Shown here: positions 1,415-20,735 of the stretch, piece by piece
How positions within the stretch are numbered: position 1 is the stretch's first letter
Layout of the letters: the number at the start of each line of letters is the position of its first letter
Source of the DNA: Magallana gigas
Taxonomy: Eukaryota
Direction: 5' to 3'
DNA length: 64,000 nt
NCBI RefSeq assembly: GCF_963853765.1
Contig: NC_088853.1
Span: 16,678,001 to 16,742,000 of the forward strand
The notes under the pieces: generated by a model
What the model was told of the DNA's origin: nothing
Seen by the model: the letters and a program-made list of their open reading frames with translations, nothing else
Database searches by the model: none
Program-made: the position numbers and the translations under genes

Positions 1415-2157
1415 GACAAAGGCCTATTGAGATAGCAGAAAAACTCGAAAGCAAAGATATTTTTAATTTGTTGGCATCATATCAAAACCAAACCAAGCGA
1501 GGAGAATCCCCAAGGAAGAAATTCGTACTTCCGCCTGCCTTCTCGCCTCAAAACGAGACTGCTTTAAGAATGGCTGCCAATAAAAATACTTCCATGAGCG
1601 ATGTGGACAAATTAACACCGCGGTCCACATATATTGATGACGAAACACCCAATCTGTATCTGACGTCATCAAAATTGAGTAGAAAGAAGCATAGAAGGTC
1701 GATTGATAGTTTAAGTGTAGAGACTTCGCTTCTTCCAGCGATAAAACCTACAAGTAAAAAGTGTGCGCAAATAGGAACGCCAAGGGACCATAAAGACAAA
1801 CTGAGCGTAGACTCAAAACAAAGGGAAAGGCGGAACTCTATTTCACTTCCGGATCTTCGGGATTCCCCTGGAGGTTTAGTGGCATCCGGCGGAAATAGTC
1901 CTTATGGGAACGACGATGATTATTCGTCAGACTCAGATTTTAGTGATGACGCTATTGTTGATCTCTGTTCGCTTGACAAACCAATGGACCGGGTAGTCAA
2001 ACGGAGCGCATCCGAGAAACATATTGGGTTTCCAAGCATCAATAAAGGCAAAGAGGGTACGAAAGTGAAAAGAACTCTAACGGAGGGAAGTGTGTATAGC
2101 AACAGTGACAGCAAACTAAACAGACTTAAACTGCTTCAGAAGAGCGTTTTAAGTTAG
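1415..2157 (+). CDS. Terminal coding exon of a host gene whose upstream exons are not identified. It ends a probable ankyrin repeat and continues into a Ser/Lys/Asp-rich disordered tail.
   Basis: Acceptor tttgtag|gac at 1414/1415 extends the 1468-2157 ORF upstream in frame: (G)QRPIEIAEKLESKDIFNLLASY, resembling the ankyrin G-x-TPL-x2-A...I-x2-LL pattern. Stop TAG at 2155-2157. Confidence 0.6.
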
Positions 2158-3173: not shown

Positions 3174-3455
3174 TATGCATGTTAATGAAAATAACAAATA
3201 TATCTAGACAATTATGATACTATAAAATAATCGTAATTAACTGTATATACAATCAATGCGTATGGAAGCCTTCACTAATGAAACACAACAGACTATTTTA
3301 TATTTGAATATAGTGTATCGTCAGTTCCACATGTACATGTATTTTCAAACGGTAAAAAAAAATAAAACAAAAACACAACGCCGTGAAAACAATTTCCTGC
3401 AGGAAAGTTAACTAGGGAGGCAAACATTACAGCGAAGCCTGCGTCACTTCCGGTT

Positions 3456-6400
3456 TTATTCAGAGGAGCACCTGTTGCAGTACCGTTTACAGGCTAGAAA
3501 GACGAAGTTGGCGTAGTCGTGATTCGTGCAAAAACCGTCCTCATATTCGTCGCAGTTTGGTATCGTATCCTTACATCCCACTGCAAAAAAGTTGGCTGTT
3601 CAAAGTATATGTATATTGCTCTAATTTCAAAATACAATTTATGAGTAGTGTAAAAACCAGAGTTCTACGCCAGATGTTTTACTATAGGCTCCTCAAGGCT
3701 CCTCTGAGGAGCCAATGACGTCATCCATAACCATAGCAACACATACTATTGATAACGGTGGAAGGTGGGAAATCCCATGATGTCATAGGCATTGAAGATC
3801 AAAGGGAATTTATAGGGGGGGGGGGGGCTAAACAAAAGAGCTATTATATTCAACAACAATAGGAAGAGTAAAATTAGTTGGCAATTGATAACGGTGGAAG
3901 GTGGGAAATCCCATGATGTCATAGGCATTGAAGATCAAAGGGAATTTATAGGGGGGCTAAACAAAAGAGCTATTATATTCGACAACAATAGGAAAAGTAA
4001 AATTAGTTGGCATTGATAACGGTAGAGGGTGGGAAATCCCATGATGTCATATGTATTGAAGATCAAAGGGAATTTATAGGGGGGCTAAGCAATAGAGCTA
4101 TTATATTCAACAACAATAGGAAGAGTAAAATTAGTTGGCATTGATAACGGTAAGGATGGGAAATCCCATGATGTCATTGATATTGAAGATCAAAGGGAAT
4201 TTATAGGGGGCTTAACAATAAAGCTATTAGTTTGCATTGATAATGGTAGAGGGTGGAAAATCCCATGATGTCATAGGTATTGAAGATCAAAGGGAATCTA
4301 TAGGGGGGGCTAGACAATAGAGCTATTATACTCGACAGTAATAGAACGATCTGAAATTAGTTGGCAATAGATCTATTGTCATCTATAGAGTCACAAAACT
4401 CCCTTGGAGGGATCGAAGGGTGTCATAAGACACCGATCTATCATCATCGGTTCTTGAGGGTGGGTATACAATAGACCTATTATTCCTATAATCAAAAGGG
4501 GGCAATAGTTACATTAAAAAGAGTTAAAGGTACGTTAGTCATGCAATACATTATACGGGTAATGACATATTTGAAACGAATGAGTAAACATGGGTCATTT
4601 AAACCCTCGTTTAACAAGAGATTTAAAGGTAGCTTTATTCATCCGAGACATCATACAGGTAAGGACATGTTTGAATCGAATGAGTAAACACGGGTCTTCA
4701 ACCCCTCGTTTTACAAGAGAGGATAACACAAAATCTCATATTTTCCCATCAGTTTTCTGTAGGGTTTTCTTTCGTTGAAGAGATCGAAAAAATACACATG
4801 AGGCATCAAAATTCCTTGGCTGTCTGATGAAGAAGTAGTAAGATCAATCAAGCACACTAAGTTCGCTATTTAATTTAGGAATACATAAGAAATATCGTAT
4901 TGGGTCTTGACAGGTAAACTCAAACATAGGTGTAATATTCTAAATAACCATAGATATGGATCTGTGTCATATAACTTGCAGACTCCATCACTCCTAAAAA
5001 AAAAAAGTCGTATCGTTTCCATTACTATGGTCTTACATCATCTGATTGAATGAATCTCAATACACTCTTGGAATGCTAATGATGTAGCGACTTTTGTTGT
5101 TATTAACCTACCTGTTATATAAGGACTCCACTGGAATAAAGCTTGTAACAAGGCTTTCATGGGCTATCCTTAGGTAATAACTTTTATTAGTATGTCATGT
5201 AATCTATGGAATAAAAGTATTGAACAAATTGATTCTTATGAACTTATATAGTGCTGTGATAATATCTGGGTTTTTTTTTTTAATTTGATGTATTTTTATA
5301 TGTAATCATGACATTCTGTGATATATTTACCTGAATAAAATGAAATGAAATAGTTACCTAGATTTTAAACACCCTCATTGACTCGGAATTTCCGGGTCCA
5401 TTAATTTATTCCATTGACACCATGATTTGACAATTTTACAGTTCTCTGGGAACAATACCCTGGAACGGATTTTCCGACTATTTTTAGGCCTTTCTATTGT
5501 CGTTCAGTACAATAGCTCTACTGTTTACTCCCCCTATAGATTCTTTTTGATCTTCAATCTATCGATAAAGATCTTTAAATAAATGGTTTATAATTTACAA
5601 TCGGAAAATTGCTTATCCGAACCAATCAGACAACTTGTTTATATAATATCACCATGGAGATATTTTTCTTGTATAAATTAATGAGATCTACAGTGTTAAA
5701 TCAGTTGCATCATAGTTGCGGAAGAAGTAACACCGTAGAGTTTCAAAGAAGTTCATATTGTGTTTCCGTTGGATTTGGATAATATATCTGTATAAGGTAG
5801 GATTTTGTTTTTAATTATATACATATTATATTTCATTTTTTTTTTTTACATAATTAAAATGAGCATTCTAAAACAATCACTTAATCGTTGTGTCATTTGA
5901 GGTATTATAAAATCTTGAACAGTTTGTTTAACGTTTGGGGGTTTTTTTCCAGATGAGTGGTTGAACAGTGTTGTCATTCTTACTGTAGAAATAGGTTTCA
6001 GTCGTAAATTTAAAGGCCCCGATCCTCATTTAACGAATGAGTAACCAATTTTACAACGTAAACAAACTGTGGTTGATATTACTTGTATACATACCTTCAA
6101 ATACATAAAATGTGTTAGATTAAAAGGGATTTTTTAATGATAATTAATTTCATGTATTTTCATATTTTACAGACAACATCATGCCTGTTTCTCAGTTTAC
6201 CTGTGAAGATTGTGGCAAAAGCTTCACACGTCAATCGAATTTACATCGACATCGAAGAACTACCCACCATGTAGACACTTTCAGCTGTTCTACCTGTGGG
6301 AGGCGTTTCAACAGAAGGGATAATTATCTACGCCATACAAGGAATCATATTAGAATTCCAGATCAAGGATCTCCACCGATAGTTGGTTCTGAACTATTAA

Positions 6401-9400
6401 CCGACTCACAAATCCAAGAAAGCATCCAAAAAGAAAATGTGTGCCCCAACTTTCAAAATCAAGTGGGGAGTGGCATACCACCAAATGACCCTCAAGGTAA
6501 GTACTTAAACGTTTTTTTTTTTTGTTTTTTTATGCATATCAAATTGCTCTCACCTATTTTTTGAATATATGAGTGATATGCATATTGAATAAAAACGGAA
6601 ACGGGCTTTTATTTTCACAGGTTCTCAATTTGGTGATACAAGAAATGATAGAGAAGACTGCATCACTTCAGAAGAAGCTATTCATGGGAACCTGAAAAAG
6701 ATATCCATATCGGCTGACGATCAAACCAAATATGACCCTTTGACATTTCTCAAATCGAAAGAAGAGAAAGTGAGATCTGTCCTGCAGAACGAACGCACCA
6801 AACGAAAAAGAATGAAGTTTTACCTCACCTTACAAGTGCGTTTCACCAAGACCAGAGGGGATCAAGTGGAAGTTGCAGAGCCTCACTTCCACGGACGCTG
6901 CCACATAGTATTAAACAATCAAGACATCGAGCATGCTCTGAGGGAAAGTATTATGAAGATTGTGAACTCTTTCATTGAATATCAAAGAGAAGGGAGTAAC
7001 TGGGCGCTGGACAAAGTCCTCGGAGTGAGCATTCATGTAGTCCAGTACAACCCGATCAAAGGTTCCAGTTACCTTCCGTTACCAGCTAAACTCGCCAGCA
7101 AGAAAGCCATCATCAATGTCCAGAATACCGATCAAAAGTGCTTCATGTGGTCGGTGTTGGCTGCTCTTCATCCTACAACGGGGCATCATGGGCATCCAAA
7201 TAGGCTGAACAACTACATTGCTTTTCAAGAAGAATTGGATTTTACCGACATGACCTTTCCCGTCCGCGTGTCTGATATCCCAAAATTTGAACAAAAGAAT
7301 GGATTATCCATCAATGTTTTCGGCTACGATAAGAATGAAGTCTACCCTCTCCATCTCACCAGAGAGAGAGGGTTAAAACATGTTGATCTTCTCGTCCTTG
7401 ACAGAGGAGATAATTCACATTACTGTTGGATCAAAAATTTCAACAGACTCATGGGAGACCAGAATGGAGATAATAATCAGTATCATTACTGTTACTATTG
7501 TCTCCATGGATTCACCAAAAAGAAACTCTTAGAAAAACACCTACCTTACTGTCAGGTCCATGGCGCCCAGAGGACCGAGATGCCGAGTGAGGAAGAGAAA
7601 TGGCTAAAGTTCTCCGACGTCTCCAAGCAACTCAGAGTGCCGTTTGTAGTGTACGCAGATTTCGAATGCATCTTAGAGAGGCAATACGGATGCCAACCGG
7701 ACCCTAGCAAGTCGTCCACCATTAAGCTAGCGAAGCATGCACCCTCCGGATTTACATATAAAGTCGTAGGACTTTCACCAGAGACCACAGAAAATCATGT
7801 GACCTATCGTGGCCACGAGGCCGTTGACGTGTTCGTCGACCATATGATCAAACTCGAGGGGCGCCTTTTGAACATATTGCGCAATCCCAAACCCATGGAT
7901 TTGTCCGAGGAAGAGACAAAAGCTTTACGGGAAGCGACTTTATGTCACATCTGCCACGGAAAACTAAGGAACGATACCGTTCGTGATCACTGTCATGTGA
8001 CGGGAAAATTTCGTGGTGCAGCTCATAGTTCCTGTAATCTGAATTATCGGTTACGTGAGCGAATTCCCGTATTCTTTCACAACCTCAAAGGCTACGACGC
8101 TCACCACATTATGAATGCCATCGGCAAGTTTAAACATAAAAAGATTAACTGCATCCCCCAGAACCACGAGAAGTATATTTCGTTTTCGTTGGGCAGGCTA
8201 GATTTCGTGGATACGTTTCAATTCATGTCTGCCTCTCTAGACAAACTTTCCACCAATCTAGCCAAAGAGGGCATCCATAAATTTCCTCATCTCAAAGGTT
8301 ACGTCGCATCCATCCATCCCGAAAACCAGCAGACCAAGCTCCAACTTCTCAGAAGAAAGGGCGTGTATCCTTACCGTTACATGAACTCCGTCAAGCGATT
8401 TGAAGAGACGTCACTGCCACCACAACAGGCTTTCTACAATGATTTAGATGGCAAAGCCGTGTCCGACCAGGATTACTTACATGCACAGCGGGTTTGGGAT
8501 GTCTTTAACATTCAAAATCTAGGACAGTATCACGATCTGTACATGGAGACAGACGTTCACCTGTTAGCAGACGTGTTTGAGAATTTTCGTGACCTTTGCA
8601 TTGACATGTATGGTCTCGATGCGGCTCATTTTTATACGGGTCCAGGACTGGCTTGGCAGGCTGCCTTAAAGATGACAGGGGTTGAACTAGAGTTGTTGAC
8701 CGACCCGGATATGCATCTGTTTGTGGAAAAGGGGCTCAGAGGAGGCATAGCCATGATTTCAAAAAGGTATGCGAAAGCAAACAACCCCTATCTCAATGAC
8801 TATGATCCAAGGCAACCCTCAAACTATTTGATGTATTTAGATGCCAACAATCTGTACGGGTGGGCCATGTGTCAGCCACTGCCCACTCATGATTTTTGTT
8901 GGCTGACGACTAAAGAAAGAGAGACTCTCGACATAAATGCCATCCTCCATGAGGGAGACACTGGTTACGTTTTTGAAGTCGATCTAGACTATCCCTTGGC
9001 ATTGCACGACAGCCATAGCGACTATCCTTTAGCTCCCGAATCCTTCAAAATTGAGCCTGCGATGCTTTCGAGTTATCAGAAAGATCTTTTGACCAAGCTT
9101 GGAATGAAGGAAGGTTCTTGTACCAAGCTAGTCCCCAATCTTTTTGATAAGAAGAATTATGTCGTTCACTATCGGAATTTGCAACTCTACCTCGCGCTGG
9201 GGATGAGGCTTACTAAAATTCACCAGGTACTGTCTTTCAAGCAGAGTCCCTGGCTAAAAGCCTACATCGATTTCAATACGAGCAAGCGAAAAGTTGCAAA
9301 AAACGAGTTTGAAAAAGATTTTTTCAAACTCATGAATAATAGTGTGTTCGGCAAAACCATGGAAAATCTGCGAAAAAGAGTGGACATTCAACTCGTTCAC

Positions 9401-10621
9401 CACCAGAAAAGGCTTTCAAAGCTCTCGGCCAAACCTGGATTTAAATCCTTCAAGATCTTCAATGAAGATCTGGCCTCTGTGGAACTAACCAAATCAAAAT
9501 TGGTTCTAAATCGACCCATTTACGTGGGATTTTCCATTCTGGAACTTTCCAAGGTATTGATGTATGAATTTCATTACAACTACATCAAGAAAAGGTATGG
9601 TGGGCGTGCAGCTCTCTGTTTCACAGATACGGACTCTTTATGTTACGACATATCTACCGAGGATGTGTATGTCGACATGAAGGAAGACCACCATTGTTTT
9701 GATTTTAGTGATTACCCAGACACCCATTTTCTTCATAGTAATCAAAATAAGAAAGTACTCGGGAAAATGAAGGATGAATGTCAAGGTCATGTCATGCGAG
9801 AATTTGTTGGCCTTAAACCCAAAATGTACAGTTTTGTTTACGAAACTCAAAACAAGAATGAAAACGTTTGTCAAGAAGAAAAGAAAAGAGCTAAAGGAGT
9901 GAGTAAGGTGGTCGTGCAATCAAACATACAACACGAGAACTATAGACAGTGTCTATTGAACAGAGAGTTTCAGATGGAGTCGATGGTGACGTTTAGATCC
10001 TTTAATCATCAAATATTCACCATCGTTCTAAACAAAACCAGCCTGAGCCCCTTTGACGACAAAAGGCATATTCTAGAGGATGGTATTCACACCTTAGCTC
10101 ACGGTCATTGTAAGACATCTCCTGTATAATGAAGATGTCTATTATCATGTATATCTTGTAAAATATGTGTTATTGCTATACTTATTGTAATGCTGAATAG
10201 TGAATAAATGAATGAAAAAAAATATTGTCGTTGAATCTTAGTTAAGGACTCCGGGGGGCCCCCGCGGATCCTAAGGTTTCCGGATCATTAGGTTTCCGGA
10301 TCCTTAGTATTCGGAGCTTAAAGGTGTCCGGTGATCTTTGATGCCGGAATCGGAAGTTACCGGAAACTTTAACCTAATTGGTTGCTATAAAAAGTGTAAT
10401 GGACCAATCACCGACGAGATCTCGTCTATAAAACTGGACCTTCCGGTCACGTATGCCATTATGCGAGAGGACGCTAAAGGACCAACATGTATTCTTGCAA
10501 TCATTGTTCGAACGCTTACGTCTGGCCACACGACCTGAACCGTCATGTAAAACACAAACACATAGAATGTCAGCAGCGGCAGCAACAACAACAACAGCAG
10601 CAGCGACACCATCCACTACAG

Positions 10622-10653
<32 letters not shown>

Positions 10654-10720
10654 CCAACTACAGCAGCAGCACCAACTACAGCAGCAGCATCAACTACAGC
10701 AGCAGCACCAACAACAACAG

Positions 10721-10752
<32 letters not shown>

Positions 10753-13700
10753 GCAGCAGCACCAACTACAGCAGCAGCAGCAACAGCAGCAACAGCAAGA
10801 GTTTATGTTTCAACACCCTTTTACGGCCAACGTTTCGGGACCAACCTCCTCGGGCAAAACGTATTTCGTGAAAACGTTGTTGCAACATTGTATGAGCAAG
10901 ATTTCCCCTCCCCCAGAGAGAATTCTATGGCTCTATAAGCGATGGCAACCCTTATACGACATCATCAAATCTACGGTGTATCCCTCAGTCGAATTCATAC
11001 AGGGTATTCCGTTAGACCTGGAGCAAGATTCGTTTGTTCACCCAGGAACGAGGAATCTCGTGATTTTAGACGATCTCATGTCGACAGCAGCCAAAGATTC
11101 TAGAATCAACGAATTGTTTACCGAGGGTAGTCACCACAGAAATCTATCGGTCATGGCTATCAATCAAAATCTGTACTATAACAAAGATCCCACCCAGAGA
11201 AGAAATTGTCACTACTTGGTTCTGTTTAATAACCCCGTGGACAGACAACAAGTCATGACCTTGGCTCGACAGATGTATCCCGACAACCCTCAACACCTGC
11301 TAAGACATTTTAAAGAAGCCACTTCCAAACCTTATGGATATTTGTTGGTTGATTTGAAACCAACTACATCCGAACATCTGCGCATGCGCATTGACGTCTT
11401 GAATCCTATAAAACAGCTAGAAGCAGAGAATGTGCCTCATTCTCCAAGAGACATCCCTACCGAACAGACGTATCACCAGCCAATTCCTCTTCCCCAACAA
11501 TTGTTAACAGAAAAGTCGGAATTTCAACACACGACACCTGATTTTGAAGATATGCCTTCCTGTGACGATTGTGGTCTGGTCTTTGAAAATATGCATGACC
11601 TTCAAAGACATGTGAAAAGATGGTGCCCAGAGAACGAAAAAAGGAGAGATGATGTTGAAATGGAGGAGGATCAGTCCGATTGGACCCCTATCAAGCCGGA
11701 GAAGAAGGAAGATGAAGATGACCGGGAACATGACGTCTTTCATGCTCTCATGGATAAGGCCAGAGAGAAGAACGAAACAGAATGGAACCAGAAATACAAC
11801 AAATACATCAAAGAGGGATTGACTCGAGAAAAGGCCAGAGAGAAGACCGAAGCAAAGATGAAGTCAAAAGACTTGCAAACATTTGTTACTGGATACGCCG
11901 ATCTCATCCAATACATTCTAGATTTAAAGCATGGTTCCATACATGCAACCATCATGGATGACGTCTCGGATTTCCAGTCTAGAGGCTACGGCGAACGCAA
12001 ATCCATCAGAATGGCCCTGAATAAAAACCGTCATCTCCTCGACGAAATGTGGGACGACGAAATGGAATTCGATGAACGAGATAGTGAAACGGAAGAAGAG
12101 GACAGTGATGAATCTGAAGAAGCTTAAATGTCTTTTGAGAAACTGTTTTTCCGTCTAAACGAGATATTATGTATCATAGCTTTTGTTTGAATAAAAATTG
12201 AAAAAAAAAGTATGTCTTGTTGTACATGTCATTTACGATCACGTGATCAAACGTTATATAATAGGGTCGGTTACGTGGAGGCTTCATTTCTTTGATGTCC
12301 GACAAAGAGGAAGCATGTCTTGGGAGAACTATCTCAAGCAAGTGTATTACAATCCAGTGAATGCCGGAAGTTTTTCCGGGCCGGACAAACTGTATCGATA
12401 TGTGCGCAAAGAAGGAAAATACGTTCTAAGCAAATATAAGATCAGGAAATGGTTACAGAGGCAAGACGCTTACAGTCTACAGAGAGGAGTCCGAAGACAT
12501 TTTAAGAGAAACAGAGTCGTCACCCTTGGTATTGACGACCAGTGGGATGCAGATCTCATGGATATGTCGAAATACGCCAAACAGAACGACGGGGTTGCCT
12601 TCGTTCTGGTGGTTATTGACATATTCTCCAAGTTTCTTTGGATGCGCCCTCTGAAGGACAAGAAAGGCCAAAGTGTCACTTCAGCCTTTGAACATATTCT
12701 TCGGGACGGTAGACGTCCTACCCGAATTCGTACCGACAAAGGACAGGAATTCCGAGCCCGAGTCTTCAACGAATTTCTGAACACCCGAAATATCGAGCAC
12801 TTGTACGCCCAGAACACAGAAACCAAGGCCAATTATGTAGAAAGGGTGATTAAAACGATCAAGGCTAAAGTGTATCGATATATCACCTACCAACAATCCT
12901 ATCGTTACGTGGATCACCTACACGACTTTGCCGCCAACTATAACGCAACGTATCACAGAACAATCGGCATGCCTCCTGATAAGGTGACAAAGGCGAAGGA
13001 GACGGACGTCTGGTGGAGAATGTATTGGCCCAAGAAGGCACCCGTAATATCTAAGCCTAAACGAGTGAGAAAACCCTTCAGATTCAAAGTGGGAGATCGT
13101 GTGCGCATCAGTCACCTGCGGAACGTTTTCACCCGCGAATATGACGAGAAGTGGTCTGGAGAAATATTCGTGGTATCGGAGAGACGCCTAAGAGGAGGAT
13201 TACCCGTATACAGACTTAAAGACTATCTGAACGATGAGATTAAAGGAACCTTTTACCAAGCGGAACTCCAAAAAGTGGACGTTCGTGAAGATGACGAATT
13301 TAAAGTGGAAAAAATATTAAGAACCAAAGGTCGTGGACGTAATAAACAATACCTTGTAAAATGGTTACATTGGCCTACAAAGTTTAATTCGTGGGTCAAT
13401 GCAGATGATATGAAAGGATATCCTTGATGATATATTACTTAACTATTATTATTATTATTGTTATTGTAAATTTCTATAAAAAGAAAATAAATATGAAAAA
13501 TCTAAAACATGTGTTGTTATTCGTCGTGTTTATAGATTCAAATCAGAGAAAAAACATCTCCATGGTGCAGGGATGGTGTCGATTACTTTCAAAAATAATC
13601 GATTAAATTACAATGAATTTTTTTTTTAATCTAAGTATAGATGATTAATGTTTTTGAAGGAAAAATGTATTTTCGACAGGAGTATTAATTCTGATATAAA

Positions 13701-16700
13701 GTTATCAATTTTTACAAGCCTTTCTAGTACATTTTATCATCATTAACCATCTTTTACGGTTGCGTAAATATCTCTGTGTTCTAAAAATAAAGAACTTTTA
13801 TTCATCCATTAAATAAGAAACAGTTTTAATTATGTAAATTATAAACAGAAAACCGTTTATACATAGTTGACTGTATTTATTTGTGTTGAACTTATACTAC
13901 ACATTAGTATAGGCTTTTACTACAATTAATACAATGGTTGACTATAAACACTGTGGTATATCATTGTGTTATTACGGTACTTAAGGGTGTGTTCTTGTTT
14001 TGCATACATTTGAAAATTCAGTACAAAACAATAGGTGTGAATTGTGTTTTTATTTTATATAGTCTGGTTTTTTACCTGAGATTTACCAGTATTTTACAAA
14101 TGCATTTTAAAGAAGAGTTTGGTGATCATACTGCACATGTATTCTAGTGCACTCTATTTAGAATAATGATTAAAAAAAAAATATTATACTTTCAACATTT
14201 CACATTCATTCTGAAAGTACAGTTTTTTTTTCAATCTATTCTATTAAAGAAAACAGTAAAGAATATGAGATTTTGTGTTATCCTCTCTTGTAAAACGAGG
14301 GTTTGAAGACCCGTGTTTACTCATTCGATTCAAACATGTCCTTACCTGTATGATGTCTCGGATGAATAAAGCTACCTTTAAATCTCTTGTTAAACGAGGG
14401 TTTAAATGACCCGTGTTTACTCGTTTGTTTCAAACGTGTCATTACCCGTATAATGTCTTGCATGACTAATATACCTTTAACTCTTTTTGATGTAACAATT
14501 GCCCCCTTTTGATTATGGGAATAAAAGGTCTATTGTATACCAACCCTCAAGAATCGATGATGATAGATCGGTGTCTTATGACACCCTTCGATCCCTCCAA
14601 GGTTGTTATGTGACTCTATAGAGGACAATAGATCTATTGCCAACTAATTTAAGATCGTTCTATTGCTGTCGAGTATAATAGCTCTATTGTCTAGCCCCCC
14701 TATAGATTCCCTTTGATCTTCAATACCTATGACATCATGGGATTTCCCACCCTCTACCTTTTTCAATGCCAACTTGTTTTACGCTTCTTATTGTTGTTGA
14801 ATATAATAGCTCTATTGTTTAGCCCCCCCCCCCCCTATAGATTCCCTTTGATCTTCAATACGCGATTTCCCACCCTCTACCGTTATCAATTGCCAACTAA
14901 TGTTACTCTTCCTATTGTTGTTGAATATAATAGCTCTTTTGTTTAGCCCCCCTATAAATTCCCTTTGATCTTCAATGCCTATGACATCATGGGGTTTCCC
15001 ACCTTCCACCGTTATCAATAGTATGTGTTGCTATGGTTATGGATGACGTCATTGGCTCCTCAGAGGAGCCTTGAGGAGCCTATAGTAAAACATCTGGCGT
15101 AGAACTCTGGTTTTTACACTACTTTTATGTGTTCGCATATATGTGTTAAGGCAAGACATACTTATACAATAACAGGACTGTCCTTAACAGGCACGTAGCA
15201 TCGGGTGGGGGGGGGCTTTTTTTTGGATGAGTCTGTCCCCCCCCCACCCCCACTTTCAAAAACGATGCTACATGCCTGTTAAACAAGAAGAGCTCTATGT
15301 AAAGTTATATAAAAAACACCCAAATTTAAAAGGTTAGATACATCAATATTGATTTTTTTCTTTACTGAATAATAGTTTGACGATCTGATTGTTAATTTGT
15401 AGACCATCCGGTGTCCTTAAAGCTTACTTATAATTTGATTTTTTCCTTTACTTATTAATAAACTATTGCTGAAGAAATTCTATTAAAAATTTTAAGTAGG
15501 CCTGCTTGGTTACTTGTTGAACACCAAGCCCCCTTATAGCACAAAATACACTAAAATAAGTGGCTAAGTATAAAATTAATGTATCTTGAGATGTCTTCGT
15601 AATATTCTATTAACCCACCTGGATGACATATGCCACAGGTTAGAGGGCAGTGGGTCTGCGCAAATCCATAGTAAATGCTCGTCTGGTTACAAATTTTAAA
15701 TAAGTCGTAATGCTTGCAATCGATATTCTTGGCATCGATACAGGCGTCTGCANNNNNNNNNNNNNNNNNNNNNNNNNNNNNNNNNNNNNNNNNNNNNNNN
15801 NNNNNNNNNNNNNNNNNNNNNNNNNNNNNNNNNNNNNNNNNNNNNNNNNNNNNNNNNNNNNNNNNNNNNNNNNNNNNNNNNNNNNNNNNNNNNNNNNNNN
15901 NNNNNNNNNNNNNNNNNNNNNNNNNNNNNNNNNNNNNNNNNNNNNNNNNNNNNNNNNNNNNNNNNNNNNNNNTGCATGTATAATAATTTTTTTCTCTTAC
16001 TTCTATTTCTAACCAGTATACCTGTCCCTCTCTCCTTCTTTTGTATCTATTCATTAGTACTTATATCTTAAATATGCTCTATGATAACAATTACCGGATG
16101 TTGTCGGAAAAGACGCTGGAGTTGACAATGTTGTTAGGTTGTTGGTATGTACAGTGCGATCCGTTTGTACCGAGGACACTGTAGAGTTTCCCGCGCTATC
16201 TGTATTGTGTTGTCCGGCAGTAACACTGCTTTGAATCGTTGGAGAATGCGAGGCGAAGGATATTGGTGAAGACGAGGTCGTTGTCGACGTTGTTGATGTT
16301 GAAAATAATGGAGATGATGATGATGATGACGACGTCGATAGTGATGATGTTGAGAATGGGACAGAGGTAGTTGTTGATCTCATTGTTGTTGGTAGAGAGT
16401 CTGTTGTTGTTGATGTTTTTGTTGTTGTTGTTAGGAATGGTGATGTTGTTAACGATACAGCATAGTATGGCGATGTTGTTGTTTTTGTTGTCGAAGATGT
16501 GTTGTTTTGATATCCTGCTGTAACGTTATATGTATGAGGAGATGACAAGTTGTGTTCTATTAAACAGGAGAAAAATGTAAAATATAATTTTTAATGAAAT
16601 AAGCTTAGAATTACATATTGACAAACAAAGTCAATTAAAATCAGTTTCATTAAAGTTTTAACTTTTACTAAGTTCTAGAAAGAAGTCCTCTAAATTCATC

Positions 16701-19700
16701 AAAATGTACAAATTAGGATATATACATATTTTTCAATAATATACATATTTTTTTCACGCTTCCTGTAGTTAACTCGCGACATCAATTATGCAAAATTCTA
16801 ATGCAATACAAACTCTCGGTGTTGTTTTTTGTTTAATCAAAAAAGAGACACACATCTAGTTTATACCAATTTACATACAATCTGATGACAACCAAAGACA
16901 AATAAAGAATCTCCTGTGAAAAACATACATGTATTTATTAGGTTATCAAGGTTAAAACAGAAGCATGTTTATATACGTTTGAGCGTCAACAGCTGCACTG
17001 ACCTTGACATAAGGAACAGGTGCCAGGACACGCCAGCCTGACCTCTGACACCGTGTGGCATTTATCCTGCAGCAGAGGACAAAAAGGATTGCGATCAAGG
17101 CACAGTTTATCTACAGAAAATTAAAAGAAACCTTGTTCGATACGGTAGGCATATCGGATACATTGCATGCATTAGTAACTATGTTTAAAATAAGTATATT
17201 GCCAAGTGGTTCTACAATCTTGAATTTATACAGCTGTAAATATGTATTGTATTTTGAAAATTGCAGTATTTTTATAAAGCTGCAATTTCTTCCTTTTTTC
17301 TGTGTATATAATAAAAATGTACAAGTAATATGCAAACTAGAACCCACTGCATTATGAATTTAAATATTTGTTAACTTAATGTTAACATAAACGAAACTTT
17401 TAATGAATCAATCATTTTACAGGAACTAGAAAAAGATACTGCATTGAATGTTTTGTTTTAGATTTCATTCAACAATATATATTAATTAAATAACATAAAA
17501 ATCGACATTTTAGCACCTTTTTACTTATATCTGAAAAAAATCCTAACAAAGAATTGTGAACCAAAATTACGTGAAAAACGAAACACTTTACCGTTTGTAC
17601 GGTTGCTATGACAACGGTCATTACAAAGGTCACCTTCACAACAACGGGAGCAGTAGGGGTTGTCCGGGTATTGCTCCAGTGTCCGGCATTTCTACAAGGG
17701 ATGGAACATTTTCATTGGTTAACTATTCTTTTGTCCGATTTCAACGCTAAAACAAACGGTGTTACAAATTGTATCATTTCTGCTCTCACACCTGATTTTG
17801 TTCTGCTGAAAGGAATTCAAAACCAATAAGTTTATTATCATTTCTATGTCAATTTCACTTTTAAACTTTGGAGTGTAAACCTTTAAAAAGGAGGGGGTGG
17901 GGACATATTGTTTTTCATTCCTTGCTTTCCATTTTTCTCTTTTCAATGGAACGTATTCAAATGGGACATCAAATCTAGAGCAGTTTGTAATATCACAAGA
18001 TAAAATAATTGCCGATTATGTCGTCAATTGTATACTATTCCAAAAATGTAGAACAGAAATTATATAGCTTTTTAAGATAACATAAAAAACAATGTATTTT
18101 TATAATATTCGGTAGATGTAATTTATTCAGGGTAAATGTAAATAGTTTAAGGGTTGATTTCAAGAAATATCGCGTGTATCTATGAACAAAGGGACAATTT
18201 CAAGAGACATCATGTATGTCTACGAACAACGAACAAACAAACGTGCTAACCGTTTCCTTAAGAGCACACCCAGTGACGTAATGGTAGAGCATTGTGGTTT
18301 CGTCACGTGACATGCCAATGTAACAGGCCTGAAATAAGGAAATAAAAAAAATAAAATAATGTGATAAATCCACTATTTTATCATGTCTACACAATTTTTA
18401 CTTAAGGAAAACTTATGAGACAACAAAAGGCTTCTGAAATCGGGCTTAAAGAGGATTAGGAAAATGTAGATTAATAGGAATACATCCAAATATGAGTTGA
18501 CGTATAGTCAATTGAGCAGTTCTTGCAGTATCACACTAAACAGAATGGCCAAAAATAGGACACTTCCCACCTTTTTTTTATTGTTATATTTAAATAGAAG
18601 ATCACAACCGTAGATCAACATAAAATCAATATTGTATATAACATATATCGTTTCTAAAAATAATTGACACCATTGTAAAGGACGCGCTTATGATCATTAT
18701 TTGTGCGGGGGAGGGGGGGGGGGAGAGAAAACAATTAATTCTGACAGACTTTACAAAAATCATGAAATAATTGATAACCAGGCAAACGCGCTTTGTTCAT
18801 GACGCAAAAATGGTAGACATGTGGGTTTTCTGTTCAGTTGCTGACGTAGCTTCAACGTTTTATAAAATGTTAATTCCAGTATTAGGCAGGTGTATGTTAT
18901 TCACGCGCCCTGTCTGAGCGTGGAAAGCAGGTTTTGGTCGTAATTACAAATTATACCACAGAGGCATCGTATCCGCTCTACCCTCTATGACATATATATA
19001 GTTATATGAATAATACATGTATTATTTATATATATGCCATAGAGTGTAGAGCGGATACGGTGCCCCTTGTGATTATATGATATTAATTCAATGCACACAT
19101 CTGACCGCATGTCCATCATACAAACTTATATTGGGCGGTATTGTGCAGAACATAGTATCAACCACTAGGAGAAAAAAATCGTTCAGCGAGAAATACATTG
19201 AAGTATAGATTTATACTTTTATAGAAAAAATATATAAATTAGGCCTTTCTTAGAAAATGTTTCTTTAATTGGAATTGCCGTCAGGGGGTTTCTAGACCCA
19301 GGTGGGAGGGAGGGATTTTTTGTTTCAAGCTTGAAGTTTAACTAATTGAAATTGGGTAAAGAAAATCTCTATGTAAAAAAAAAATCATTATTTGCTAATA
19401 AATTTTATCAGCGGGGGGGGGGGGGGGGGTATTTCAATAAGGCGGGGGGCAATTTCAAACAATTTTATGGCCTTATCATAATATATGGACCAAAAAGAAA
19501 TTGAAATTAAATAATATAATCGAGTACAAAACGACTTTTATCTTAACTTAAACACGTCACTGGTATATAAATTTAAAAAAAGGTACTTAACTTACTAGTA
19601 TATGTATTTTTGTACAGGATTATATATAATTATATACATGTATTTTTCTTTTTTATCCAATAAACATTATTACGTCAACAAGTTGACTGTGTACCTAGTC

Positions 19701-20691
19701 CTTTGAACTTTCCAACGTTGCTCTACATAGCATTCAATCACAGACATAGAACAGCGCGAAAAATAGATTACCGCAAAAAAAGAACAATTTTACGTTGTTG
19801 CTCAAGACATTCATGCCAGTATTTCCCTTTATTAAAATTAATAGTTAAATGAAGACATTCAATTTGTATTGAAAATATAATACAAACATCAGTGAATTTT
19901 TCATTTTATTTTAGCCGGGTTAGAATAAACGTAGAATAAATCCTAGCTGCTTCCCTACGCCTACAAATTTAGATTTGTTGGTGATCAATTTCCGTGGATT
20001 GTTATTCGTAGCGATGTTATTTCATGAAGGTCCAATAATAAAAATAACTCTTTCTAAATTTGTTTTCGTCGACGATGCAAATTCGTGGGGGGGGGGGGGG
20101 GGGGGGGGGGCTACCCACAAATATCACAAAACACGAAAATTGAGCACCATGAGTTCTAATGATTCTACAGTATTATAGTTCACTTGCACAACATTACTAA
20201 AACACAGTGTTTGCTTTTCAGGTTTTTTTTTTGTTAGCGGAATGGTTGTTTGCACCGTGAAGAGAAAATTAGAACCCTTTTAACAATACCTTGGACTTTC
20301 GGTTGGACGTAGCTTTCTATTTCTTGCGTCAAAACAAGTTAAAAATGACGCTGGATTGAAGCGAAATATGCACCGATTGCGAAGTCTTATCTCAAAAACC
20401 AGACAAATCGTGTTGATTTCAAAGAGACATGGCTGAGTGGCCAGCAATGAAACAGACAGGCCTACGCCACATTGCTTTTTGACACAACTACCCAAAGTCC
20501 AAGCTCCTGTCAAAATGGTTTTAAGTCCACTGAGTGATCCAAGGCTTACCCTGTCTATGGAGCAGAGTGTTATCTGATCACATGACTCCGGGTGTGTCTG
20601 GTAGTCACAGGCGTAACAGATGGTCCCCGAGGAGTCGGGCAACACTGAAGATAGACAGACAGAATGAACAGATAATGTGTATAGATACAAA

Positions 20692-20735
<44 letters not shown>

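What the first reader, a model, noticed from the sequence alone, without database searches (positions are those of the whole stretch)
3456..15747. Polinton inserted antisense in the last intron of a host LU/ShK gene, 63 nt from the 3' splice site
Seen: the ShKT exon 15747-15619 ends in phase 1, and its in-phase partner (VGCKDTIPNC...CNRCSSE-stop, 3580-3456) lies on the far side of the element. The intron grows from a reconstructed 552 bp to 12,038 bp, leaving only 63 nt before the acceptor. The element's antisense strand has AATAAA signals (e.g. TTTATT at ~13797). Inference: this allele may truncate or mis-splice the final ShK domain, or produce dsRNA and silencing between host and element transcripts.
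Basis: partly seen in the sequence, partly recalled or inferred. Interest (0 to 1): 0.7.

Follow-up and report, generated by a model that had tools for sequence, protein, structure and literature searches.

The report
Capsid-less Polinton inside oyster gene intron
An 11.5-kb virus-like jumping gene, present at this site in some oysters and absent in others, sits backwards in the last intron of a likely secreted protein's gene, which is probably still spliced across it; the element's family has no capsid genes but keeps under selection an ATPase of the DNA-packaging type, possibly to ride in capsids made by its larger relatives.

Summary
A Polinton (3644-15123, 6-bp TTTATG duplication, about 1-kb terminal repeats) lies antisense in the last intron of a 12-exon LU-like/ShK oyster gene, 63 nt from the acceptor; the intron is 12,038 versus 552 bp. 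Database proteins and one RNA contig join 15619 to 3580. Public DNA runs show the empty site, so the insertion is polymorphic. A second copy elsewhere is 99% identical, so it is likely recent.

The proposed harm is untested. Host-strand AATAAA is not enriched (7 seen, 7.6 expected) and the last 63 nt of the intron are unchanged. Against a benign reading, crude acceptor-like motifs are about 4-fold denser than in the flanks, and the terminal repeats could pair in the pre-mRNA.

The more unusual part is the element. It encodes only polymerase, ATPase and integrase. None of its 16 closest ATPase matches has a capsid gene within 20 kb (48 of the next 54 do), yet the ATPase has dN/dS 0.06-0.15. The usual pattern is joint loss of capsid and ATPase; only 2 of 72 tabulated Polintons keep the ATPase alone. 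Verdict: ordinary insertion, moderately interesting element.

The parts
3456..3580 (-). Last coding exon of the host gene (third ShK domain, stop TAA)
   Evidence: Phase 1 entry, peptide found in P0002; ShK E=0.0021, 19 bits, below the Pfam cut-off of 20.9; joined to 15619 in RNA run X19
3581..3643 (-). 63 nt of host intron left between element and acceptor (57 nt plus the 6-bp duplication), holding the pyrimidine tract and AG
   Evidence: the same stretch runs on into 15130 in empty alleles
3638..3643 (.). Target-site duplication, left copy (TTTATG)
   Evidence: single copy in empty alleles of X1 and X13
3644..15123 (+). Capsid-less Polinton, 11,480 bp, all genes on + (antisense to host)
   Evidence: second copy G000:C3:47775069-47786524, about 99% identical, duplication GAGGAT
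3644..4742 (.). Left terminal inverted repeat, with 128-bp and 97-bp tandem units at 3748-4328
   Evidence: 0.37% substitutions to the left arm of the C3 copy, 3.8% to its own right arm
6181..6496 (+). C2H2 zinc-finger exon, likely spliced (intron 6497-6620) in frame onto the polymerase
   Evidence: zf-C2H2 E=1.7e-13; GT/AG in phase 1; in sister elements zinc fingers and polymerase lie in one open frame
6621..10129 (+). [quoted passage not shown]
   Evidence: Exonuclease and polymerase motifs located (motif labels recalled); Endonuclease_7 E=6.8e-6, no PF03175 hit
10487..12127 (+). Packaging-type ATPase with N-terminal zinc finger and poly-Q, followed by a second zinc finger, a helical domain and an acidic tail
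   Evidence: Adeno_IVa2 E=9.3e-5 (above cut-off), Pox_A32 E=0.0014; Walker A/B and HRN in the alignment; helical domain pLDDT about 90
12315..13427 (+). rve integrase with C-terminal chromodomain
   Evidence: rve E=3e-10, Chromo E=1.6e-8; D, D, E motifs located
13797..14054 (-). Three host-strand AATAAA hexamers 1.56-1.82 kb from the donor, the nearest candidates for premature polyadenylation
   Evidence: total count in the element at chance level
14262..15123 (.). Right terminal inverted repeat
15124..15129 (.). Target-site duplication, right copy (TTTATG)
   Evidence: right junction 15094-15153 held as a contig in X1
15130..15618 (-). Donor-side part of the host's last intron
   Evidence: read-through would add 22 residues and stop
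15619..15747 (-). Exon 11, second ShK domain (phase 1-1)
   Evidence: ShK E=1.1e-7; 100% match in P0001
16095..16556 (-). Exon 10, Ser/Thr-rich stalk (P0002 uses an acceptor further in)
17003..17110 (-). Exon 9, first ShK domain
17592..21830 (-). Exons 3-8, two cysteine-rich LU-like domains
   Evidence: Exon peptides found in P0002; no direct Pfam hit; 18 of 25 relatives tested hit UPAR_LY6 or Toxin_TOLIP at E<=0.05
22255..23079 (-). Exons 1-2 (23079-23060, 22295-22255), signal-peptide-like N-terminus
   Evidence: signal peptide judged by eye, not computed

Best explanation
An 11.5-kb Polinton that encodes polymerase, ATPase and integrase but no capsid has inserted, likely recently, antisense into the last intron of an oyster LU-like/ShK gene; the site is empty in other oysters, and the filled allele is probably still spliced from 15619 to 3580 with at most a partial loss of full-length mRNA. 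Shown: structure, 6-bp duplication, exon pairing, polymorphism, a second 99% copy, absence of capsid and protease genes, purifying selection on the ATPase. Inferred from the families involved: the polymerase copies the element from its terminal repeats and the integrase inserts it. Inferred for the host: the acceptor, pyrimidine tract and likely branch region lie within the unchanged 63 nt, so the longer intron is still removed; the two terminal repeats are predicted to pair in the pre-mRNA and loop the element out. For the retained ATPase my preferred but untested reading (about 45%) is that it binds the element's own ends through its added zinc fingers and loads the DNA into capsids made by the full-size Polintons of the same genome. 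An intracellular role in copying or integration is nearly as likely (about 40%).
For: Junctions and phases. Junction 15619-3580 in 6 of 6 cluster proteins and 1 of 1 RNA run laid. Empty site read directly in X1 and X13; in X4 and X6 a contig starts exactly at 15124 and goes on for 517 and 519 letters that do not fit the terminal repeat. Filled junctions in X1 (right) and X3 (left). C3 copy: 0.2-0.4% substitutions in the genes, different duplication. AATAAA at chance level; 5 of the gene's 10 other introns hold AATAAA, 8 in all. Terminal 177 nt pair at -350 kcal/mol against -67 for 10 shuffled partners. Capsid and protease queries from two full-size Polintons match each other (E 1e-70, 1e-17) but not the element or any of the 20 loci holding short relatives, at E<=0.1. 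Longest stop-free frame in the non-coding parts is 79 codons. 0 of 16 versus 48 of 54 ATPase matches with a capsid match within 20 kb. ATPase dN/dS 0.063-0.149 in 7 sister-family pairs with dS>0.2. 87 capsid matches in the genome.
Against: No transcript from a filled allele was seen: the X19 contig comes from another haplotype, and P0002 is a gene model, probably built on this same assembly. Crude acceptor-like motifs are denser on the element's host strand than in the rest of the window (1.05 versus 0.23 per kb; 12 against a shuffle mean of 3.4). Two of them (5203, 4993) lie upstream of AATAAA at 5188 and 4639 and could make a false last exon. In mammals full-length DNA transposons are under-represented within 2 kb of exons (PMC3088655), and an intronic inverted-repeat transposon goes with 2.4-fold lower expression in a cichlid (PMC8758764). 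The last ShK domain is kept in two distant relatives, so its loss would probably matter. Nothing tested the ATPase's function. The 16 and 54 matches are related copies, not independent events.
Confidence: 0.6

Rival explanations
1. The filled allele is largely truncated: transcripts are polyadenylated at 14054-13802 or spliced into a false last exon inside the element, giving a protein without the third ShK domain (read-through adds 22 residues and stops).
For: Three AATAAA 1.56-1.82 kb from the donor, none between the donor and them; acceptor-like motifs about 4-fold denser than in the flanks; intron 22 times longer than the empty one, where the other ten are 0.1-2.2 kb; PMC3088655 on full-length TEs near exons.
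Against: AATAAA count at chance and below the density in the gene's other introns; acceptor-proximal 63 nt unchanged; only one acceptor-donor pair 40-350 nt apart; 63 nt lies outside the under-20-bp zone that PMC3088655 calls most harmful.
Confidence: 0.15
3. The element is simply a deleted copy of a full-size capsid-bearing Polinton, and its ATPase is a leftover with no current role.
For: Most animal Polintons carry capsid genes (59 of 72 intact or split, PMC4028283); deleted derivatives are common in this genome; 5 of the 16 closest ATPase loci were not fetched.
Against: The same capsid-free order recurs in a sister family about 60-69% identical in the polymerase, with its own ends and 6-bp duplications. 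Synonymous sites between the families are saturated (pS 0.82-0.87) while dN is 0.14-0.15. No capsid match lies within 20 kb of any of the 16. A third family keeps only integrase and ATPase.
Confidence: 0.07
4. The insertion is an assembly artefact, or exon 3580-3456 belongs to another gene.
For: X1 showed no left-junction contig; the X3 left-junction contig has 30 letters on the element side, one short of the tool's 31-letter rule.
Against: Exact 6-bp duplication and matching ends; both junctions occur in public runs; the exon junction is in proteins and an RNA contig.
Confidence: 0.02

Closest known systems
Polinton/Maverick elements (Polintoviricetes, Orthopolintovirales; 'adintoviruses')
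   Same: Protein-primed polymerase B, rve integrase, packaging-type ATPase, long terminal inverted repeats, 6-bp duplication (definitions from 10.1101/2023.08.22.554363).
   Different: 11.5 kb against the usual 13-25 kb; no major capsid or protease gene; ATPase frame of 546-549 aa with zinc fingers and a helical tail, against about 215-250 aa in this genome's capsid-bearing elements.
P_Pd1.1 of Platynereis dumerilii (10,777 bp) and P_Gi1.2 of Glomus (11,019 bp) in Table S1 of PMC4028283
   Same: Same scored pattern: capsid, penton and protease absent, ATPase present; similar size.
   Different: There they are 2 single table rows of 72, not described as a lineage in the passages read; their sequences were not compared here. 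Here several families with recent copies and selection on the ATPase are shown.
Capsid-less 'Polintons' sensu Koonin, Krupovic and Yutin 2015 (PMC4405056)
   Same: Capsid genes lost, transposon-like life.
   Different: The usual pattern is joint loss: 9 of the capsid-less elements also lack ATPase and protease (PMC4028283); this family keeps the ATPase.
Polymorphic intronic TE insertions (mouse LTR insertions in PMC3088655; cichlid goldentouch insertion in PMC8758764)
   Same: Full-length element in an intron, present in some individuals, close to an exon or carrying inverted repeats.
   Different: In those cases altered transcripts or expression were measured; here none was.
Phage satellites such as PICI/SaPI (recalled, no call)
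   Same: Possible analogy: no capsid of their own but an own packaging component that directs helper capsids.
   Different: Bacterial, terminase-based, helper use proven; here an FtsK/HerA-type ATPase in an animal and no evidence of packaging.

Membership tests
Polinton/Maverick | [quoted passage not shown] | tested here: met
   1,105-aa frame with exonuclease and polymerase motifs (labels recalled); no PF03175 hit, as for the divergent class in PMC8502044; weak match to the full-size element's polymerase, E=5e-4
Polinton/Maverick | rve integrase | tested here: met
   PF00665 40.7 bits above cut-off 32.6, plus chromodomain
Polinton/Maverick | Terminal inverted repeats of 100-1500 bp | tested here: met
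   1,099 and 862 bp arms
Polinton/Maverick | 5-8 bp target-site duplication | tested here: met
   TTTATG here, single in empty alleles; GAGGAT at the C3 copy
Polinton/Maverick | Typical length 13-25 kb | tested here: not met
   11,480 bp; a typical range, not a strict criterion: Table S1 of PMC4028283 lists elements from 10.3 kb
Polintovirus (capsid-encoding Polinton) | Double jelly-roll major capsid gene | tested here: not met
   Two resident capsid proteins (one identified as DJR-like) find each other at E 1e-70 but not the element; no free frame over 79 codons; nearest genomic match 1.4 Mb away
Polintovirus (capsid-encoding Polinton) | Maturation protease gene | tested here: not met
   Two resident protease-like proteins (HW..C motif, judged by eye) have no match in the element
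Polintovirus (capsid-encoding Polinton) | Minor capsid (penton) gene | tested here: inconclusive
   No query was identified as penton. Of the 21 frames of two full-size elements, only ATPase, integrase and polymerase matched, and no free frame over 79 codons remains
Polintovirus (capsid-encoding Polinton) | Packaging ATPase | tested here: met
   Adeno_IVa2 and Pox_A32 hits; 45% identity to a full-size element's ATPase; motifs conserved, dN/dS about 0.1
Satellite packaged by helper Polintons | Element DNA found in helper capsids | not testable with these tools
   Needs sequencing of nuclease-protected particles
ShK-domain protein | PF01549 domains | tested here: met
   3 stretches, 25.6 bits above cut-off 20.9; exon 11 alone E=1.1e-7
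LU (Ly6/uPAR) domain protein | UPAR_LY6 or three-finger profile match | tested here: inconclusive
   No direct hit at E<=1 or in the PDB search; 18 of 25 chosen relatives (of 150 listed) hit UPAR_LY6 or Toxin_TOLIP at E<=0.05, 6 at or above the UPAR_LY6 cut-off
Mutagenic intronic TE insertion | Aberrant or reduced transcript from the filled allele | not testable with these tools
   Only contigs were served; the one RNA run laid came from another haplotype

The most novel reading that the evidence does not exclude
Oysters host an old, still spreading clade of Polinton satellites: elements that dropped capsid and protease (one family also the polymerase) but kept and extended their own packaging ATPase with zinc fingers, so that they hijack the capsids of the full-size Polintons in the same genome. 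This would be an animal counterpart of phage satellites, with a helper and satellite pair among endogenous DNA viruses.
Probability: 0.3. Interest if true: 0.78.

Novelty: new variant of a known kind. Interest (0 to 1): 0.38.

Why it matters
As a host-gene event it is ordinary: one more polymorphic TE insertion in an intron, useful only as a ready heterozygous test of how an oyster splices across a 12-kb intron with inverted ends. The element matters more. Packaging ATPases are taken as evidence that Polintons form virions and are expected to be lost with the capsid. A multi-family clade that keeps the ATPase under strong selection without a capsid means either that capsids are borrowed from helper elements or that the ATPase has a second job in copying or integration. 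Either result would change how Polinton gene content is read. Insertion polymorphism among living oysters gives material in which Polinton movement in an animal can be observed.

Tried and rejected
Fold of the ATPase's C-terminal domain: model pLDDT 52 overall, about 90 for residues 310-410; best VIA-align Z 7.1 to unrelated helical hairpins and none at 8 or more; no viral match at E<=0.001. This says nothing on function. Atlas search of the host protein P0002 gave no usable hit; the PDB search gave only a weak ShK-like match, E=0.3.

Dating the insertion from left-right repeat divergence was rejected: the 3.8% difference is shared with the C3 copy (left-left 0.37%), so it was inherited. Contig depths were not used as copy numbers. 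No filled junction was listed for X4, X6 or X13, but the table was cut (2,600 pieces not shown), so that is not absence. My first exon table was off by one base at several exons and was corrected. The Fisher test printed was discarded because the copies are related. The branch-point motif scan found no match to the simple pattern in the 63 nt, so the branch point was not located.

Metagenome scan: 9 loci with the extended ATPase or its core, all 1.2-4.3 kb, too short to show gene content. Earlier findings: none by place or sequence. Literature: 9 searches listed no title or abstract on a capsid-less, ATPase-keeping Polinton lineage in molluscs; subscription papers and Repbase reports are outside the library.
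Full report
1. Observation. The element runs from 3644 to 15123 (11,480 bp), begins and ends with the same 37 inverted bases (AGTAGT...), and is flanked by TTTATG at 3638-3643 and 15124-15129. Its inverted arms are 1,099 and 862 bp and hold 128-bp tandem units. Exon 15747-15619 is phase 1-1, exon 3580-3456 enters in phase 1, and the intron is 12,038 nt, or 552 without the element, with 63 nt left before the acceptor.

2. Host gene. The exon 11 peptide finds one protein cluster, labelled Magallana (Crassostrea) gigas by its sources. All 6 members run from exon 11 straight into the 3580-3456 peptide. Twelve exons from 23079 to 3456 have AG/GT ends and consistent phases; their peptides occur in P0002, except the first 12 residues of exon 10. 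P0002's contig has the length of G000:C1, so it is probably a model on this assembly and not independent. The protein has a signal-peptide-like start (by eye), two cysteine-rich domains, an ShK domain, a Ser/Thr stalk and two more ShK domains. The LU label has no direct Pfam support; 18 of 25 relatives that I chose from the 150 listed hit UPAR_LY6 or Toxin_TOLIP at E<=0.05. Two distant relatives (59% and 44%) also end in two ShK domains. RNA run X19, the only RNA run laid, has a contig that covers 3401-3583 and goes on with the bases of exon 11; it comes from a haplotype with a 14-nt difference near the stop.

3. Polymorphism and age. Five genomic runs of the 24 listed were laid (X1 and X13 have no library type on record). 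The empty site was read directly in X1 and X13: a contig ends at 3643 and goes on with the bases of 15130 onward. In X4 and X6 a contig starts exactly at 15124 and continues for 517 and 519 letters that do not fit the terminal repeat; those letters were not shown. X1 also holds the right junction (15094-15153, 30 letters each side), so it carries both forms. X1 or X3 may be the animal the window came from, so carriers beyond it are not proven. X1 and X13 also show element ends at other flanks. A second full copy lies at G000:C3:47775069-47786524 with duplication GAGGAT; its genes differ by 0.2-0.4%. The family has therefore likely moved recently.

4. Effect on the host. Seven AATAAA lie on the host strand of the element; shuffles give 7.55, and 126 of 200 reach 7. 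The density is 0.61/kb, against 1.35/kb in the gene's other ten introns and 1.48/kb on that strand of the rest of the window. The 63 nt before the acceptor are the same in filled and empty alleles. These points argue against a special polyadenylation trap. Results on the other side: crude acceptor-like motifs number 12 (7 distinct) against 3.4 in shuffles, 1.05/kb against 0.23/kb in the flanks; donor-like motifs also exceed shuffles (15 against 6.9) but not the flanks (1.13 against 1.65/kb). One acceptor-donor pair lies 40-350 nt apart, with a stop in the host frame. In mammals full-length DNA transposons are under-represented within 2 kb of exons, and insertions under 20 bp from an acceptor are the most harmful (PMC3088655, passages). 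The pre-mRNA would contain both terminal repeats; the outer 177 nt pair at -350 kcal/mol against -67 for shuffled partners. This could loop the element out and ease splicing, or supply dsRNA; an intronic inverted-repeat transposon in a cichlid goes with 2.4-fold lower expression (PMC8758764, passages). I put near-normal splicing at about 0.6, reduced expression at about 0.22 and major truncation at about 0.15. None was measured.

5. The element. It has three genes on the + strand: a zinc-finger-led polymerase, an ATPase and an integrase with chromodomain. Two full-size Polintons fetched from the genome carry a capsid protein (one scored as DJR-like) and a protease-like protein. These match each other at E 1e-70 and 1e-17 but not the window element or the 20 loci holding short relatives; across all fetched loci they hit only the two full-size regions. 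The non-coding parts have no stop-free frame over 79 codons. Genome-wide I compared the best 70 of 121 ATPase matches with all 87 capsid matches: 0 of the top 16 and 48 of the next 54 have a capsid match within 20 kb. Both searches give lower bounds and the copies are related. Of the top 16, one is the window's own, 10 were fetched and 5 were not. A sister family of about 9.5-10 kb has the same order (polymerase about 60-69% identical); three members are repeat-bounded, two with a clear 6-bp duplication, and two were not delimited. A third family of 7.2-7.9 kb has integrase and ATPase only, with polymerase fragments in its repeats. Two further relatives are decayed or interrupted.

6. Selection on the ATPase. 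Walker A, Walker B and the HRN motif are kept across the families (labels recalled). dN/dS is 0.063-0.149 in the 7 sister-family pairs with dS above 0.2 and 0.063 between the window copy and the C4:27.74 relative; between the families synonymous sites are saturated (pS 0.82-0.87) while dN is 0.14-0.15 (Nei-Gojobori on about 205 codons; near-identical pairs are uninformative). The zinc finger and helical tail recur in 13 database proteins at 28-98% identity, one of them lacking the helical part. The fold of the tail gave no informative match.

7. Mechanism. Copying by the protein-primed polymerase and insertion by the integrase with a 6-bp duplication follow from established Polinton biology. 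Why the ATPase stays is open. I favour loading of the element's DNA into capsids of resident full-size Polintons (about 45%), because the family is a packaging family, 87 capsid matches exist in the genome, and the added zinc fingers could give specificity for the element's own ends. An intracellular role beside the integrase is about as plausible (40%), since the smallest family keeps exactly these two genes. Neither was tested.

8. Comparison with what is known. It meets the Polinton criteria and fails those of a capsid-encoding polintovirus. Capsid-less Polintons are known (PMC4405056, passages). PMC4028283 reports joint loss of capsid, protease and ATPase in nine elements (passages). Its Table S1 (read whole) has 2 of 72 rows with the ATPase alone: P_Pd1.1 (annelid, 10.8 kb) and P_Gi1.2. 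Its only C. gigas entry is 20.8 kb. Also seen as passages: 10.1101/2023.08.22.554363, PMC11161782, PMC8502044, 10.1101/2025.04.19.649669 (bivalves are rich in such elements), PMC10294476. Nine searches listed no title or abstract on this lineage. Repbase entries, subscription papers and the closed bioRxiv supplements could hold it.

9. Verdict. The insertion is real, polymorphic and ordinary in kind, and its harm to the host gene is unshown. The element is a variant of a known class with a precedent in one table, and has one unexplained feature: a packaging ATPase kept under selection without a capsid. Interest 0.38.

Noticed in passing
window 3456-3467: The window's haplotype lacks 14 nt that X13 and X19 carry behind 3466; this removes the stop right after the last cysteine and adds three residues. 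5 of 6 cluster proteins end at that cysteine. The empty allele seen in X1 also lacks the 14 nt, so the change likely predates the insertion.
   Followed up: partly
window 3455-3460: The only AATAAA or ATTAAA on the host strand from 3460 down to 3174 overlaps the stop codon. X19 has a different base there and its RNA contig reaches 3401, so the gene's polyadenylation signal was not located.
   Followed up: no
G000:C8:40964015-40971264, C7:2856096-2863627, C10:36582065-36589999 (L015-L016, L018-L019, L035-L036): A 7.2-7.9 kb family with only integrase and extended ATPase, whose 1.0-1.25 kb terminal repeats (98.6-99.9% alike) contain polymerase gene fragments; 6-bp duplications seen at two of the three.
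   Followed up: partly
window 3644-4742 and 14262-15123: Left and right repeats differ by 3.8%, and the C3 copy carries the same differences, so copying does not homogenise the inner arms.
   Followed up: partly
window 6497-6620: Likely intron in the element's polymerase gene; sister elements have one open frame here.
   Followed up: partly
G000:C1: 66 of 87 capsid matches lie on this one contig, whereas the 16 closest ATPase matches are spread over 8 contigs.
   Followed up: no
P0014: An extended ATPase that ends in a chromodomain, as if fused to the integrase's tail.
   Followed up: no
window 15180-15280: A short, very high-copy repeat inside the host intron; hundreds of contigs per run fit it.
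   Followed up: no
window 1570-2157 (+): A 195-aa frame of a neighbouring gene converging on the host gene's 3' end; no convincing Pfam match.
   Followed up: no
window 27420-27559 and 28092-28231; 26144-26192 and 26556-26604: Short inverted-repeat pairs, probably MITEs, upstream of the host gene.
   Followed up: no
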